Position numbers and translations under genes: made by a program. A stretch of 64,000 nt of DNA. Source: an uncultured Pseudomonadales bacterium. GTDB lineage: Bacteria; Patescibacteriota; Microgenomatia; UBA1400; PJMF01. A model generated the notes under the pieces. That model had not been told where the DNA came from. It did no database searches and saw nothing but the letters and a program-made list of their open reading frames with translations. Location: assembly GCA_964588685.1 (NCBI GenBank), contig CAZPQG010000002.1, positions 35,481 through 99,480 on the forward strand, written 5' to 3'. Of the stretch, positions 55,974 to 59,423 are shown piece by piece (positions within the stretch are counted from its first letter, which is position 1; each line of letters starts with the position of its first letter).

Positions 55974-58142
55974 ATGCCCGTAGTTAATCCTGCTCATCAA
56001 TTTTTACAATTTCCTAAAACTGAAGTCGGTACATACGCTCTGGATTTAGCTCGATTAGCAGCCAATAAGATTCCTCTCCCACCCACTTACTGCATCCCCA
56101 TCAGTACTTTAAAAAAAATAGGTCAAGCTAATAATCTGCAAACTAAATTTAATAAAATTGCTAACAGCACCGATCTTCAATCTCAAGAAGAACTGGAGCA
56201 AACTGTGGCCAAGATACAAAATTTAATTAGACAACAAGTTTATCCGCATCAAATTTCTAAAAAACTTTTACAATTCTATGCTAAAAAATTAGATAAAGAT
56301 TATATTCGGCTTACAGCCAGCCCGGTAGACGGTAAAAAAATAGATTTTAAACGCGAAGATAATATTAAAGGTGAGGCCAATATGATGGAATCTATTTTAA
56401 ATGTGTGGGCGCTCAACATTGATCTCACTGATATCCAGGACAACAATTTATTTCCGGTCGCCATTGTTATGCAGGCACAAACCCAGCCCATTAGTTCAGG
56501 CCTAGCTTATAGCATGAATATTAATAATGGAGATAAATCTAAAATTACAATCTCTTCAGTGTTTGGAGTATACGCTATTCCGGAATCAGAGCAAGCCCAT
56601 GACACTTATATTATTGATCAGCGCAGCTGGCAAATTTCCCAACAGACTAAAGCAGAAAGCAAACAATTTTTTAAACGGCAGCCTGATCAATTAACAATTC
56701 AACAAAAGCCTAAACTTGGTAACCAATTTAGTTTAAGCACTGACAAAGCTATTGAACTAGCGCATTTAGTTAAAAAAATTAAGTTAACTAGAACAGAGCA
56801 AATTAAAATACATTGGGAACTGCAGAACGATCAGCTACTAATTACAAAAATTAAACCCTATCATTACTCCTCAGCTCACGCTTTTGATCAAGAAAAATAT
56901 ACTACTTTAGTGATAGGGCATGGTGTTACCTCAGGTTTTGTTTCAGGCAGATGCTTTTTAATTGAACAAGCACAAGATGTAAAAGCAATTAAACCGGGCA
57001 TGATAGCAGTAGTTAAAGAATTAACCAGAGAGCATCAAAAGCTTTTGCAAGTCTGCAGTGCCATTATCTGTGAAACAACTATTAAAGATCAATTAATCTT
57101 AAACAAAATTCGAGACTATTCTTTGCCGGTCATTATCTCAGCCCAGCACGCCTTAAAACAACTGCGTAATGAGCAACTGGTGACAGTTGATGCCGCTGCC
57201 GGCAAAGTCTACCAAGTTAAATCAGAGCAAAAAATCGACCAAAAATTAACTGTCAGCAGTAAAACAAAGCTATATTTGGCTGTGAATAATTTTGACGAGA
57301 TATCAGAAAAAATGGCCTTAATTTCAAACGGCATTGGTTTACTGCGCAGCGAACATCTTTTTATCAAAACTGGCTTACACCCACAGCAAATTCTTAAAAC
57401 TAGAGCTAATCAATTTCAAAAAAAGACTGTCAATGATTTGCTCAGATTTTATCATCGCTTTATTAATTTAAAACAACAAGAGCCACTCATAATTTACCGC
57501 TCTAACAATTTAAATGCCAACCAGTTAGCTCAACTGGAAAGCGGTCATATTTATGAAAATATTGAAAATAATCCTTATTTAGGCTTTAGAGGAGGCATCA
57601 GGTATCTCAATCAAAATGATTGGTTTAAGTTTGAACTAAAACTGTTAACAAAAATCAATCAAAAGATTGATAAACCAGTTAATTTACAATTGCCTTTTGT
57701 TCGCTCTGCTTTTGAGCTCAACCAATTATTCCAACAAATTAACAATCAAATTGAAGCACCGGTTTTACAGCCCCCAATTTGGCTGGAAATTGACACCCCT
57801 GAAAATCTGCTGAATGTTGAAGAATATCTCCAAATTCCACTGGCCGGAATTAGTATTAATATTAAAAACATACACGCTTTATTAAATGGGATTGATCCCG
57901 GATTTACCGATATTTATAATCAATATACCCTTAATCATCAGTTGCTTATTCCGGCTCTTAAAAACCTTATTGCCAAAACAAAAGAAATTCATCAAAAAAT
58001 TAAAATTCATTTAATTTTACCTGATTTTTCTGAAAAACTGCTGCAAGAAGCTAAAGATTTAGGAATAGAAGGCGTGATTGTTCGACCCGAAGTTTCAGTA
58101 CAAACTAAAAAATACTTAATAGAACACGAAACAACTTTATAA
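55974..58142 (+). CDS. PEP synthase/PPDK-family three-domain protein apparently lacking the catalytic His and the C-domain Cys (probable pseudoenzyme)
   Basis: PPDK_N-like N-terminus; mobile-domain alignment G.G.TSGFVSG...PGMIAVV...AIICETTIKDQLILNKIRDYSLPVIIS where the consensus has GGRTSHAAIIARELGIPAVVG; C-domain GIGLLRSEHLF, NPYLGFRGGIRY, LPFVRS retained. Confidence 0.6.
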   Translation: MPVVNPAHQFLQFPKTEVGTYALDLARLAANKIPLPPTYCIPISTLKKIGQANNLQTKFNKIANSTDLQSQEELEQTVAKIQNLIRQQVYPHQISKKLLQFYAKKLDKDYIRLTASPVDGKKIDFKREDNIKGEANMMESILNVWALNIDLTDIQDNNLFPVAIVMQAQTQPISSGLAYSMNINNGDKSKITISSVFGVYAIPESEQAHDTYIIDQRSWQISQQTKAESKQFFKRQPDQLTIQQKPKLGNQFSLSTDKAIELAHLVKKIKLTRTEQIKIHWELQNDQLLITKIKPYHYSSAHAFDQEKYTTLVIGHGVTSGFVSGRCFLIEQAQDVKAIKPGMIAVVKELTREHQKLLQVCSAIICETTIKDQLILNKIRDYSLPVIISAQHALKQLRNEQLVTVDAAAGKVYQVKSEQKIDQKLTVSSKTKLYLAVNNFDEISEKMALISNGIGLLRSEHLFIKTGLHPQQILKTRANQFQKKTVNDLLRFYHRFINLKQQEPLIIYRSNNLNANQLAQLESGHIYENIENNPYLGFRGGIRYLNQNDWFKFELKLLTKINQKIDKPVNLQLPFVRSAFELNQLFQQINNQIEAPVLQPPIWLEIDTPENLLNVEEYLQIPLAGISINIKNIHALLNGIDPGFTDIYNQYTLNHQLLIPALKNLIAKTKEIHQKIKIHLILPDFSEKLLQEAKDLGIEGVIVRPEVSVQTKKYLIEHETTL

Positions 58143-58160
58143 TTATTTATTAATAAATTC

Positions 58161-59423
58161 ATGTCAAAAATAGCTGCCATTAAGGCTAGAGAGATTTTAG
58201 ACAGCCAAGGACTACCTACCCTGCAGATTTTTTTGTGGATTGAAGACGGCAGATCAGTGGCAACCACAGTCCCCAATGAATGGAGTTACGACAACCCGCA
58301 GGCAGCAGTAAGTCGGGATAATGACAACCAGGAATTTAATGGCTTAGGAGTAAAGCAGGCAGTAACAACGATAAACGAAACTATTGCTCCTCAACTGTTA
58401 AATCTCTCTTGTATTCAGCAAGGGGCAATTGATCAAAGTTTACTGGAAATTGACGGCACCGGCAATAAATCTAAGCTGGGAGCAAATACCACTTTGGGCT
58501 TATCAATGGCAGTCTTGAAAGCCGGAGCATTAAGCACCAATTTACCTCTGTACAGCTATATTAGTCAAAAATACCAGTTAACTGATTATTTATCGATTCC
58601 CAATTGTGTTTATTCTCTCATCAATGGCGGCGAGTTCGGCAACGGTAATCTTGATTTTTTAGAATTTGAAATAATTCCAGCCAGCCATGTTTCCTTTCAT
58701 CAATCAATCACCATTGCTTCCACTTTAAAACAAAAAATTAGGGAAGTGATTGACACTAAAGGCGGCTCTGTCTGCATTGGCTCACAAGGTGGATATTTAC
58801 CCAGAATGAATAGCAACAGTGATGTTTTTGAGCTGCTGCTTGAAGCAATTAAAGTTTCTAATTACACTTTTGCTCAAGATGTATTCTTTGGCTTAAACGC
58901 CAATGCCGATGATTTAATCATTGACAACGGCTATCGTCTGCGTGACAAGCCTGATAAGTATAGTGCGGATGATCTTTTAAAGTTGTATTCTCAACTGCGC
59001 GAAAAATATAAAACTATTTATTTAGAAGATCCTTTTGACAGCGGAGATGAAAAGTCATGGCAAAAAATTACCAACCAACTAGGCACCACTACCAACATTG
59101 TGGGAGATGGATTAATTAGAGGCGATAAAGATAAACTGTCTACTGCCATTAAAAAGAATACCTGTAATTCTTTTTGTATTAAAACACTAGATTTTGGGAC
59201 CATTAGCGAAACTATATTTGCTATTAACTTAATAAAAGAAGCAGAGTTGTCATGTATTATTGCTGATCATTCCGGAGAAACTAACGATACTCTGACTGTA
59301 GATTTAGCAGTGGGAGTAGGCGCTGATTATGTTAAGTTCGGCCCTCCGAACAGAGGTGAAAAAATTGTTAAATACAATCGTTTAATAGAAATTAATGAAG
59401 AACTAGGGGCAGCCAATTCCTAA
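58161..59423 (+). CDS. Enolase-superfamily protein (enolase-like) with substitutions at several canonical catalytic/metal residues
   Basis: Aligns end to end with enolase (ILDSQGLPT, SIPN..INGGE, GGYLPR, IKT, SGETND, KYNRLIEI). However, GDEGG becomes GSQGG, MDCAASE becomes NANADD, and SHRSGE becomes ADHSGE. Confidence 0.7.
   Translation: MSKIAAIKAREILDSQGLPTLQIFLWIEDGRSVATTVPNEWSYDNPQAAVSRDNDNQEFNGLGVKQAVTTINETIAPQLLNLSCIQQGAIDQSLLEIDGTGNKSKLGANTTLGLSMAVLKAGALSTNLPLYSYISQKYQLTDYLSIPNCVYSLINGGEFGNGNLDFLEFEIIPASHVSFHQSITIASTLKQKIREVIDTKGGSVCIGSQGGYLPRMNSNSDVFELLLEAIKVSNYTFAQDVFFGLNANADDLIIDNGYRLRDKPDKYSADDLLKLYSQLREKYKTIYLEDPFDSGDEKSWQKITNQLGTTTNIVGDGLIRGDKDKLSTAIKKNTCNSFCIKTLDFGTISETIFAINLIKEAELSCIIADHSGETNDTLTVDLAVGVGADYVKFGPPNRGEKIVKYNRLIEINEELGAANS

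What the first reader, a model, noticed from the sequence alone, without database searches (positions are those of the whole stretch)
55974..59423. Adjacent pair of apparently catalytically compromised PEP-handling enzymes (PEP-synthase-like plus enolase-like)
Two consecutive same-strand genes are homologues of the two enzymes that make and consume phosphoenolpyruvate. Both keep substrate-binding signatures while apparently losing canonical catalytic residues. The PEP-synthase-like protein lacks the phosphohistidine of the GGRTSH motif and the C-domain Cys. The enolase-like protein has D-E to S-Q in the GDEGG motif, a Mg-ligand Asp to Asn, and an altered HR pair. Co-localisation of two PEP-binding pseudoenzyme-like proteins directly downstream of a sugar-activation module (RHH-nucleotidyltransferase, PMM, Nudix, PGI/PMI) suggests a PEP-sensing, regulatory or repurposed-chemistry module rather than glycolysis proper. 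The divergent transfer chemistries of the enolase superfamily and of PEP mutase/PEP-utilising enzymes are precedents. I am not aware of this pairing being described.
Basis: partly seen in the sequence, partly recalled or inferred. Interest (0 to 1): 0.75.

Follow-up and report, generated by a model that had tools for sequence, protein, structure and literature searches.

The report
Inactivated PEP-synthase and enolase gene pair
Two neighbouring genes in an ultra-small (Patescibacteria) bacterium look like the enzymes that make and use phosphoenolpyruvate but lack residues needed for that chemistry; both are still strongly conserved, and the enolase's damage tracks the loss of the neighbouring gene that would supply its substrate, so genome-based metabolic maps that count them as working glycolytic enzymes are probably wrong.

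Summary
ORF 55974-58142 is a three-domain PpsA homologue lacking the phospho-His (GGRTSH->TIKDQL), the ATP-grasp Lys/Asp/Glu/Gln/Arg, and the barrel Mg ligands and Cys. ORF 58161-59423 is an enolase homologue with E211Q, D210S, D246N, H159F, H373D and R374H.

The context changes the interpretation. The pair belongs to a Microgenomates/Patescibacteria syntenic block whose fuller form is PGI/PMI, PpsA-like, enolase, iPGM, LexA. The dead PpsA-like protein and the loss of E211 are old, clade-wide traits. Specific to the window's lineage is the loss of the 2-PG phosphate/second-Mg residues. This loss coincides perfectly with absence of iPGM from the block (18 of 18 iPGM-less loci eroded, in at least three different ways; 15 of 15 iPGM-containing loci intact).

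Both genes are under strong purifying selection (omega 0.02 and 0.08) and fold confidently, so they are not decaying. Most likely they are a retained, non-glycolytic pseudoenzyme pair. A repurposed enzyme remains possible.

Linkage to the sugar-activation genes is inherited synteny, not evidence of shared function. I found no prior description. A MurA gene in the window needs PEP, whose source is unexplained.

The parts
55974..58142 (+). PpsA-like (PEP synthase homologue) gene, 722 aa, canonical residues missing at all three catalytic sites
   Evidence: ORF. Pfam PPDK_N 71 bits, PEP-utilizers 21.3 (below GA 23.1), PEP-utilizers_C 54.5. NCBIfam PEP synthase 204.7 against cut-off 598. Motif table against canonical PpsA. 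AF2 mean pLDDT 86. Best fold hit PEP synthase 2ols, E 4e-37.
55974..56870 (+). N-terminal ATP-grasp-like domain (aa 1-299) without nucleotide-site residues (GGK->GTY, GLGE->GVY, DIEW->KIHW, QARP->KIKP)
   Evidence: Domain boundary taken from the low-pLDDT linker at 300-307. TM 0.67-0.78 to ATP-grasp domains 5hv6 and 9goj.
56895..57221 (+). Central swivel-like domain (aa 308-416) without the phospho-histidine (GGRTSH->TIKDQL)
   Evidence: This domain is deleted altogether in most PpsA-like partners of the tier-A enolases.
57234..58142 (+). C-terminal PEP-utilizers TIM barrel (aa 421-722). Keeps the three arginines (LLRSE, YRS, GFRG). Mg-ligand Glu/Asp and the Cys are lost. Has gained the family-specific TPEN motif.
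   Evidence: TM 0.81 to the PpsA C-terminal domain 8a8e.
58143..58160 (+). 18-nt spacer between the two genes. Across orthologous loci the gap is mostly between -29 and +61 nt (two exceptions, 160 and 215 nt), consistent with co-transcription.
58161..59423 (+). Enolase-like gene, 420 aa. Has E211Q, D210S, D246N, H159F, H373D, R374H. Keeps S39, E168, E295, D320, K345, S375, K396.
   Evidence: AF2 pLDDT 93.5, pTM 0.92. TM 0.92-0.95 to solved enolases.
59424..59725 (.). Intergenic region between enolase-like and LexA. This is the position where outgroup genomes carry one or two iPGM genes. No iPGM remnant was detectable.
   Evidence: tblastn with iPGM found nothing anywhere in the window.
54557..55651 (+). 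Bifunctional PGI/PMI-type isomerase, the conserved upstream neighbour in the block
51769..54538 (+). RHH-fused sugar-1-P nucleotidyltransferase, PMM/PGM and Nudix: members of the same syntenic block, with variable presence across genomes
13550..14926 (-). MurA (UDP-GlcNAc 1-carboxyvinyltransferase), a PEP-consuming enzyme with an intact site (Asp in place of Cys115). Relevant as evidence that the cell needs PEP.
   Evidence: TIGR01072 431.8 against cut-off 392.7. Sequence.

Best explanation
The two genes are what remains of an ancestral Microgenomates (Patescibacteria) lower-glycolysis block: PGI/PMI, PpsA-like, enolase, iPGM, LexA.

Shown for the PpsA-like protein: in every genome examined it lacks the dikinase machinery. 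It has no ATP-site residues, no phospho-His (or no swivel domain at all), and no barrel Mg ligands or Cys. It still keeps its N-terminal and barrel domains, the three arginines that hold the phosphate of PEP, and a new invariant TPEN motif.

Shown for the enolase: the whole clade lost the general acid E211 long ago. In the window's lineage the neighbouring iPGM gene is gone, and the enolase has also lost the residues that hold the phosphate and second Mg of 2-phosphoglycerate (loop-1 SGASTG, H159, H373, R374). In this genome alone one Mg(I) ligand has changed as well (D246N). Both genes are under strong purifying selection and fold normally.

Inferred: neither protein performs its textbook reaction any more. 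They are kept, probably co-transcribed and possibly as a complex, for a non-glycolytic job. The PpsA-like barrel would bind PEP or a similar phospho-acid without turning it over. The enolase-like protein would act as a structural or moonlighting partner whose Mg(I)/Lys345/Lys396/Glu168 core is kept mainly for fold integrity.
For: The residue losses are mapped on solved structures and a canonical PpsA. In M. tuberculosis enolase, the mutants equivalent to E211A, E168A, D246A and K345A are non-functional and S39A keeps about 5% activity (PMC10619443).

The pair is adjacent in all tier-B, C3 and tier-A loci examined.

iPGM presence and the enolase signature coincide perfectly. 15 of 15 loci with iPGM have S39/H159/H373/R374 intact. 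18 of 18 loci without iPGM are eroded, and in three different patterns: window-type, L018/C3-type, and P0117-type, which loses metal ligands instead.

Within the window's sub-clade, positions 39, 211 and 373 are among the most variable in the protein (94th, 82nd and 81st entropy percentile). That argues against a new specific substrate contact at those positions. Metal-ligand substitutions occur sporadically (D246 kept in 27/31, D320 in 29/31).

Purifying selection, from the one unsaturated pair (L001-L011): enolase-like omega 0.021 and PpsA-like 0.077, against PGI 0.019, LexA 0.008 and tier-A enolase 0.024.

The swivel domain of the PpsA-like protein is deleted in most tier-A loci while the N and C domains stay, so function does not need phospho-transfer. 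Folds are retained.
Against: E168, E295, K345 and K396 are invariant in all 31 members of the sub-clade despite about 51-64% pairwise identity. That is more than a purely structural role obviously requires.

Conserved-but-different sites between the tiers are mildly enriched near catalytic positions (7/14 against 25% expected, p=0.04), which hints at a remodelled rather than abandoned site.

The genome encodes an intact PEP-requiring MurA, and no alternative PEP source was seen in the 64-kb window.

iPGM, or a cofactor-dependent PGM, could sit elsewhere in the genome; I could not inspect whole genomes. No physical interaction, ligand binding or lack of activity has been measured. dN/dS rests on one unsaturated pair.
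Confidence: 0.5

Rival explanations
1. Repurposed chemistry. The enolase-like protein is still an enzyme that uses the retained Mg(I) site, Lys345 base, Lys396 and Glu168 to abstract the alpha-proton of a carboxylate. Its substrate would no longer carry the 2-phosphate, for example a 2-O-substituted or unphosphorylated 3-hydroxy acid. The PpsA-like barrel would bind or deliver a partner ligand.
For: E168, E295, K345 and K396 are 100% conserved, and D246/D320 87-94%, in 31 diverged members. New residues are conserved inside the sub-clade (F159, N161, H374, L347/D348, GG[DE]FGN, CTGPxGG). Type-II sites are enriched near catalytic positions (p=0.04). In 19 of 31 members position 373 holds Asp or Glu, which could act as a replacement acid. 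Omega is very low.
Against: The positions that would contact a new substituent (39, 211, 373) are highly variable. Two other iPGM-less lineages erode the site differently, including the metal ligands (C3: D320N, E168D; P0117: D246N, D320C), so there is no convergence on one new site. The window protein itself has D246N. No accessory genes suggesting a new pathway are specifically linked to the pair; the sugar genes are shared with tier-A genomes.
Confidence: 0.25
2. Still a bona fide enolase. Despite the substitutions, the protein dehydrates 2-PG to PEP, perhaps slowly, and supplies PEP for MurA. The substrate would come from a PGM encoded elsewhere or from the host.
For: It passes the NCBIfam enolase equivalog cut-off (349.6 against 300). 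Tier-A relatives lack E211 yet keep everything else and sit next to iPGM, so this clade evidently tolerates loss of the canonical acid. MurA needs PEP. S39, S375, K345, K396 and E168 are present in the window protein.
Against: H159F, H373D, R374H and D246N come on top of E211Q. Single Ala mutants at the E211 and D246 equivalents are non-functional in M. tuberculosis enolase. Erosion coincides perfectly with iPGM absence across three lineages. The enolase signature KxNQIGT has changed to IKTLDFGT.
Confidence: 0.12
3. Functionally tied to the upstream sugar-nucleotide module. The pair would sense PEP or act on a sugar-linked glycerate or enolpyruvyl intermediate produced with the NTP-transferase/PMM/PGI-PMI genes.
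For: Same-strand neighbourhood is conserved in all tier-B loci. Chemically, 2-O-glycosyl-glycerates are 2-PG analogues lacking the phosphate (my own inference, not tested).
Against: The same sugar genes flank the intact tier-A enolase+iPGM version. The block also contains holA, LexA, CTP synthase and L19, so the synteny is phylogenetic inertia. The NTP-transferase and Nudix genes come and go independently of the pair. A 322-nt gap separates PGI/PMI from the pair. No glycosyltransferase is linked.
Confidence: 0.08
4. Genes in the course of decay: recent pseudogenisation in a shrinking genome, with no function.
For: In two related loci one member is split: the PpsA-like gene in L005 and the enolase in L017. 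iPGM has already been lost.
Against: Full-length intact ORFs of 722 and 420 codons in a 35% GC genome. Orthologues are intact across about 30 genomes, down to 38% (PpsA-like) and 53% (enolase-like) identity. Omega is 0.02 and 0.08. Structure predictions are confident.
Confidence: 0.03

Closest known systems
Enolase / phosphopyruvate hydratase (EC 4.2.1.11; Pfam Enolase_N + Enolase_C; TIGR01060)
   Same: Full-length homology (about 33-37% identity to solved enolases), the same two-domain fold (TM 0.92-0.95), and retained E168, E295, D320, K345, K396 and the SGET motif.
   Different: Lacks the general acid E211 (Q), one Mg(I) ligand (D246N), H159 (F), H373 (D) and R374 (H). The SGASTG lid loop has been rewritten to NEWSYD. 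The KxNQIGT signature has been changed. No adjacent iPGM.
Tier-A Microgenomates 'enolases' (e.g. GIK83618.1 = P0045, annotated enolase / phosphopyruvate hydratase)
   Same: Closest outgroup (48-53% identity). Same position in the same syntenic block, the same clade-wide absence of D210/E211, and the same PpsA-like upstream partner.
   Different: Tier A keeps S39, H159, H373, R374, S375 and all metal ligands, and is followed by one or two iPGM genes. Its PpsA-like partner usually lacks the swivel domain.
PEP synthase PpsA / pyruvate, water dikinase and PPDK (PPDK_N + PEP-utilizers + PEP-utilizers_C)
   Same: Three-domain order with flexible linkers at the expected places. The family profile matches archaeal and bacterial PEP synthase structures over the full length (E 7e-73). 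The barrel arginine triad is retained.
   Different: No phospho-His, no ATP-grasp catalytic residues, and no barrel Mg ligands or Cys. Scores far below the equivalog cut-offs (204.7 against 598). Has its own invariant TPEN and INxKxxHxL motifs.
Pseudoenzymes and moonlighting glycolytic enzymes (e.g. delta1-crystallin as an inactive argininosuccinate-lyase homologue; enolase as surface adhesin or RNA-degradosome component)
   Same: An enzyme fold retained under selection while catalytic residues are lost. Enolase is a well-known moonlighter (PMC7435893; the RNase E-enolase complex 5ohg appears among the fold hits).
   Different: Here two consecutive pathway enzymes are affected together, in a bacterium, with a traceable evolutionary trigger (loss of iPGM). 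No second function has been demonstrated.
ATP-grasp + swivel-His relatives with other acceptors (rifampin phosphotransferase, PigC/RedH)
   Same: The N-terminal domain is homologous (NCBIfam and fold hits).
   Different: Those enzymes keep the ATP site and the catalytic His (PMC4844700). This protein has neither.

Membership tests
Enolase (EC 4.2.1.11) | Two-domain enolase fold and family HMM above the curated cut-off | tested here: met
   Enolase_N 134.5 bits and Enolase_C 190.6 bits. TIGR01060 349.6 against cut-off 300. AF2 pLDDT 93.5 and TM 0.92-0.95 to solved enolases.
Enolase (EC 4.2.1.11) | General base Lys345, Lys396 and Glu168 | tested here: met
   All three are present and invariant in the 31-member sub-clade.
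Enolase (EC 4.2.1.11) | General acid Glu211 (GDEGG) | tested here: not met
   GSQGG in the window. Absent from all 109 tier-A and tier-B relatives. The equivalent E204A mutant of M. tuberculosis enolase is non-functional.
Enolase (EC 4.2.1.11) | Three Mg(I) ligands Asp246, Glu295, Asp320 | tested here: not met
   D246N; E295 and D320 are kept. The equivalent D241A mutant of M. tuberculosis enolase is non-functional.
Enolase (EC 4.2.1.11) | 2-PG phosphate / Mg(II) site: Ser39 loop, His159, His373, Arg374, Ser375 | tested here: not met
   S39 and S375 are present, but the loop SGASTG has become NEWSYD, with H159F, H373D and R374H.
Enolase (EC 4.2.1.11) | 2-PG to PEP activity | not testable with these tools
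   Needs an enzyme assay. Indirect evidence: iPGM is absent from the block in all 18 loci with an eroded site.
PEP synthase / pyruvate, water dikinase (PpsA) | Three-domain architecture (ATP-grasp, swivel, PEP barrel) | tested here: met
   Pfam, profile against PDB, AF2 domains and linkers, fold hits.
PEP synthase / pyruvate, water dikinase (PpsA) | Equivalog HMM score | tested here: not met
   NF005057 204.7 against 598; TIGR01418 188.8 against 739.75.
PEP synthase / pyruvate, water dikinase (PpsA) | Phospho-carrier His in GGxTxH | tested here: not met
   TIKDQL. No His in any of about 30 family members, and the whole domain is deleted in most tier-A partners.
PEP synthase / pyruvate, water dikinase (PpsA) | ATP-grasp nucleotide-site residues (GGK Lys, GLGE Glu, DxEW acids, QxRP) | tested here: not met
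   GTY, GVY, KIHW and KIKP. That these are catalytic in PPDK (K22, D321/E323, Q335/R337) is from my own knowledge. PDB entries for the K22A and R337A mutants appear.
PEP synthase / pyruvate, water dikinase (PpsA) | Barrel Mg ligands (Glu, Asp of NDL) and proton-donor Cys | tested here: not met
   CEVP->IDTP(EN), SNDL->IKNI, CGQ->HLI.
PEP synthase / pyruvate, water dikinase (PpsA) | Barrel arginine triad that binds the PEP phosphate | tested here: met
   The LLRSE, YRS and GFRG arginines are present and 90% or more conserved (R458, R509, R539).
Pseudoenzyme (inactive homologue kept by selection) | Clear homology to an enzyme family together with loss of essential catalytic residues | tested here: met
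   Both proteins.
Pseudoenzyme (inactive homologue kept by selection) | Maintained by purifying selection | tested here: met
   Omega 0.021 (enolase-like) and 0.077 (PpsA-like), from one unsaturated pair. Intact orthologues in about 30 genomes.
Pseudoenzyme (inactive homologue kept by selection) | Demonstrated absence of catalysis and a demonstrated alternative role | not testable with these tools
   Requires biochemistry.

The most novel reading that the evidence does not exclude
The dead PpsA-like protein is an obligate partner subunit of an unusual E211-less enolase system that is widespread in Microgenomates. In iPGM-containing genomes the complex would still make PEP by a non-canonical acid/base arrangement: a residue gained in the clade, such as K42 or Y394, or one contributed by the partner, would replace Glu211. 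In iPGM-less lineages like this one, the same complex would have been converted into a PEP or phospho-acid sensor, or into a lyase for a non-phosphorylated substrate.
Probability: 0.12. Interest if true: 0.85.

Novelty: new variant of a known kind. Interest (0 to 1): 0.6.

Why it matters
Metabolic reconstructions of Candidate Phyla Radiation bacteria score enolase and PEP synthase as present from HMM hits. They have proposed that PEP synthase can stand in for the often-missing pyruvate kinase (PMC7304191).

This locus and its relatives show three things. The Microgenomates 'PEP synthase' next to enolase cannot be a dikinase. A large enolase clade lacks the textbook general acid. One sub-lineage has additionally dismantled the 2-PG site after losing iPGM. 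Lower glycolysis and PEP supply in these organisms may therefore be mis-annotated, and an intact PEP-dependent MurA raises the question of where PEP comes from.

For enzymology, the E211-less but otherwise intact enolases give a natural test of the accepted acid/base mechanism. For evolution, the locus gives a replicated example, in at least three lineages, of active-site erosion that follows loss of the upstream pathway enzyme while the protein stays under strong selection.

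Tried and rejected
- The sigma-70 promoter and terminator scan around the pair gave counts equal to shuffled sequence, so it was uninformative.
- An Rfam scan of 49-64 kb found only two tRNAs and no riboswitch or leader near the pair.
- A third homologue search with the family alignment did not reach the tier-A-associated PpsA-like proteins because of the word prefilter. 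They were recovered through genomic context and the genome-contig scan instead.
- dN/dS was saturated (dS above 1.5) for nearly all pairs. Only L001-L011 (tier B) and L022-L035 (tier A) were usable.
- The NJ tree resolved the clades (tier B+P0032 bootstrap 99; C3 bootstrap 100) but not the backbone. The number of independent erosion events (at least 3) is therefore inferred from the different substitution patterns, not from the tree topology.
- Absence of Shine-Dalgarno sequences before both genes was considered as a sign of poor expression. It was rejected because 46 of 49 genes in the window lack one.
- I looked for a second enolase or an iPGM in the window and found none. The rest of the genome could not be examined.
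- One review's mechanistic passage on Glu211/Lys345 was garbled and was not used.
- The predicted structures give no coordinates, so I could not test whether clade-specific residues (K42, H176, H206, Y394) lie near the active site.

Full report
**1. What is at the coordinates**

Two same-strand ORFs, 55974-58142 (722 aa) and 58161-59423 (420 aa), lie 18 nt apart. A 322-nt gap separates them from the upstream PGI/PMI gene, and a 302-nt gap separates them from the downstream LexA gene.

Pfam assigns PPDK_N, PEP-utilizers_C and a sub-threshold PEP-utilizers hit to the first ORF, and Enolase_N and Enolase_C to the second. The enolase-like protein passes the NCBIfam enolase equivalog cut-off (349.6 against 300). 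The PpsA-like protein falls far below its cut-offs (204.7 against 598).

The window has about 35% GC. Its closest protein relatives come from Patescibacteria/CPR MAGs labelled Pacebacteria, Woesebacteria or Microgenomates.

**2. Residue-level check**

*Enolase-like protein.* It was aligned to B. subtilis enolase 4a3r and to yeast enolase (yeast numbering).
- Lost: GDEGG has become GSQGG (D210S, E211Q). Also D246N, H159F, H373D and R374H. Lid loop 1 has changed from SGASTG to NEWSYD.
- Kept: S39, E168, E295, D320, K345, S375 and K396.

*PpsA-like protein.* It was aligned to PEP synthase structures and to a textbook PpsA, P0155. None of the three catalytic sites is canonical:
- ATP-grasp site: GGK->GTY, GLGE->GVY, DIEW->KIHW, QARP->KIKP.
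- Swivel motif: GGRTCH->TIKDQL, with no His.
- Barrel: CEVP->IDTP, SNDL->IKNI, CGQ->HLI.

The three barrel arginines (LLRSE, YRS, GFRG) remain, and a family-specific WLQLNTPEN motif is nearly invariant.

Measured data support their importance: in M. tuberculosis enolase, the Ala mutants equivalent to E211, E168, D246 and K345 are non-functional, and the S39 equivalent keeps about 5% activity (PMC10619443). The roles of H159, H373 and R374 in binding the phosphate and the C3-OH come from my own knowledge of the yeast enolase literature.

**3. The substitutions fall into layers of different age**

Among the 120 best homologues there are two main tiers.

- **Tier A** (78 sequences, 48-53% identical to the window protein) keeps S39, H159, E168, D246, E295, D320, K345, H373, R374, S375 and K396 at 95% or more. 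None of the 78 has Glu at position 211; the motif reads AIHSTG[VIL][GVL]GGF.
- **Tier B** (31 sequences, including the window protein) additionally replaces S39, H159 (F/L/Y), H373 (D/E/Q/K/S) and R374 (H/Q/E/N). E168, E295, K345 and K396 stay invariant.

Loss of the GDEGG motif is therefore an old, clade-wide trait. D246N, in contrast, is private to this genome and a few others.

In the exhaustive search of representatives clustered at 50% identity, the nearest fully canonical enolase is about 39% identical. 36 of the 150 nearest representatives lack E211.

**4. Genomic context and the key correlation**

Context look-ups and a scan of GTDB species representatives gave 40 related loci. They share a block: YgjP-like, holA, (NTP-transferase), PMM, (Nudix), PGI/PMI, PpsA-like, enolase, [iPGM x1-2], LexA, (Cob_adeno_trans), CTP synthase, L19.

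- All 15 loci with iPGM directly after enolase have the tier-A signature.
- All 15 loci where enolase is followed by LexA without iPGM have an eroded signature.
- Three further look-ups of other degenerate clades also lack iPGM.

That makes 18 of 18 against 15 of 15. The erosion takes at least three forms:
- the window type;
- the C3 type (S39E, H159Y, E168D in some members, D320N, H373Q, with R374 kept);
- the P0117 type (D246N, D320C, R374S), in which the PpsA-like gene is also gone.

Tier B plus the intermediate P0032 is monophyletic (bootstrap 99), and C3 is a separate clade (bootstrap 100). The backbone between them is unresolved.

The window contains no second enolase and no iPGM.

**5. 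The PpsA-like partner is older than the enolase erosion**

In tier-A loci the upstream PpsA-like protein is also non-canonical at every site. In most of them it is only about 610-650 aa, because the swivel domain has been deleted. L006 and the C3 loci keep a long, His-less form.

The phospho-transfer machinery was therefore lost before the tiers split. Whatever the protein does resides in its N-terminal and barrel domains. Intergenic gaps between it and enolase are mostly between -29 and +61 nt, which fits co-transcription.

**6. Not decaying**

For the one tier-B pair with unsaturated dS (L001-L011):

| Gene | omega |
|---|---|
| enolase-like | 0.021 |
| PpsA-like | 0.077 |
| PGI | 0.019 |
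| LexA | 0.008 |

A tier-A enolase pair gives 0.024.

AlphaFold2 predicts the enolase-like protein with pLDDT 93.5 and pTM 0.92, and its TM-score to solved enolases is 0.92-0.95. The PpsA-like protein has pLDDT 86 and three folded domains, with low-confidence linkers exactly where dikinase linkers lie. Its per-domain TM-scores are 0.67-0.81.

**7. Catalytic or not?**

Within tier B, positions 39, 211 and 373 are among the most variable in the protein, while E168, E295, K345 and K396 have zero entropy.

The variable sub-site argues against a new, specific substituent pocket. So do the different erosion routes in the other lineages and the sporadic metal-ligand changes, including D246N here. Together these favour loss of catalysis.

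On the other side, the invariant Mg(I)/Lys core and a mild enrichment of conserved-but-different sites near catalytic positions (7/14, p=0.04) keep a repurposed enzyme alive as a rival. I rate the readings as follows:
- pseudoenzyme or moonlighting pair: about 0.5;
- repurposed chemistry: about 0.25;
- residual true enolase activity: about 0.12.

**8. PEP demand**

The window encodes a peptidoglycan block (MraY, two FtsW/RodA-family genes, MurG, MurB). It includes a MurA that passes its equivalog cut-off and keeps K22, R120 and R397, with Asp in place of Cys115. The cell therefore needs PEP, and the source is unexplained if this pair is inactive.

**9. The sugar-activation link**

The RHH-nucleotidyltransferase, PMM, Nudix and PGI/PMI genes are part of the same inherited block, which also contains housekeeping genes. 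They flank the intact tier-A version too, and the NTP-transferase and Nudix genes vary independently of the pair. This adjacency is not evidence of shared function.

**10. Literature**

CPR metabolic surveys score enolase and PEP synthase by HMM presence, and suggest PEP synthase as a substitute for pyruvate kinase (PMC7304191; PMC7143001). Five searches found no report of these active-site losses or of this pairing.

**11. Verdict**

The finding is best described as a conserved remnant of a lower-glycolysis cluster. An anciently dead PpsA homologue and an enolase that has lost its 2-PG site, together with the neighbouring iPGM, are both kept under strong selection for an unknown, probably non-glycolytic role.

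It is a new variant of known kinds (pseudoenzymes and moonlighting glycolytic enzymes), with practical consequences for CPR metabolic annotation. The side-observation that a large enolase clade lacks Glu211 deserves direct biochemical testing.

Noticed in passing
Related loci L004, L006, L021-L035; proteins P0033-P0120: A large clade of Patescibacteria 'enolases' (78 of 78 sampled) lacks the general acid Glu211 (GDEGG has become TG[VIL][GVL]GG). It keeps every other catalytic residue and sits directly upstream of iPGM, so it probably works by a non-canonical acid. Residues conserved in tier A but lost again in tier B (K42, H206, T38) are candidates for that role.
   Followed up: partly
L004:8164-9993, L021, L023-L026, L029-L031, L033, L035: The PpsA-like partner of the tier-A enolases is only about 610-650 aa because the central swivel (phospho-His) domain is deleted outright. 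The degenerate N-terminal and barrel domains are kept.
   Followed up: partly
L005:7788-9971 and L017:2168-3248: In two related genomes one member of the pair is split into two ORFs: the PpsA-like gene in L005 and the enolase in L017. This could be a frameshift, an assembly error or true pseudogenisation.
   Followed up: no
L040:6894-9988: One lineage (P0117) has PGI, enolase, LexA, with neither a PpsA-like gene nor iPGM. Its enolase has lost metal ligands (D246N, D320C) and R374 but keeps S39, H159 and H373.
   Followed up: partly
Proteins P0157-P0306: 36 of the 150 nearest enolase representatives (50% identity clusters) lack Glu211, with many different catalytic signatures. Degenerate enolase homologues therefore seem to arise repeatedly. 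The library carries no taxonomy for them.
   Followed up: partly
window 13550-14926 (-): MurA has Asp in place of the fosfomycin-targeted Cys115 (PGGDQIGVRP). K22, R120 and R397 are intact. It is a PEP consumer in a genome whose PEP-forming enzymes look inactive.
   Followed up: partly
whole window; LexA start at 59726: 46 of 49 genes have no Shine-Dalgarno-like sequence within 20 nt of the start codon. LexA alone has a perfect AAGGAGG.
   Followed up: partly
window 51769-52569 (+): A sugar-1-phosphate nucleotidyltransferase carries an N-terminal ribbon-helix-helix (CopG/NikR-like) DNA-binding domain. This is an unusual enzyme-regulator fusion, and a faint RHH_1 hit is also on record for the orthologue in L001.
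   Followed up: no
window 38961-41081 (-): A class II Asp/Lys/Asn-type tRNA synthetase (706 aa) carries a C-terminal HD phosphohydrolase domain.
   Followed up: no
window 30955-32831 (+): Transketolase is encoded as two overlapping ORFs (N-terminal TPP-binding half, and Pyr/C-terminal half, with a 4-nt overlap). So a non-oxidative pentose-phosphate enzyme is present in the window, although no GAPDH, PGK, TPI or pyruvate kinase genes were seen there.
   Followed up: no
window 47767-48786 (-) and 49014-49673 (+): Two ORFs with no Pfam match. ORFs of similar size, also with no Pfam hit, occupy the same position in the syntenic block in L001-L003.
   Followed up: no
L007-L014, L017, L020, L022, L023, L025, L027, L029-L035 (record titles): Many ENA MAG records carrying this Patescibacteria-type block are titled 'uncultured Pseudomonadales bacterium', and others 'Limisphaerales' or 'Methylococcaceae'. 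These look like placeholder or wrong taxonomic labels.
   Followed up: no
window 49874-49956 (-) and 63156-63228 (+): Two tRNA genes flank the block (Rfam tRNA, 54 and 59 bits).
   Followed up: no
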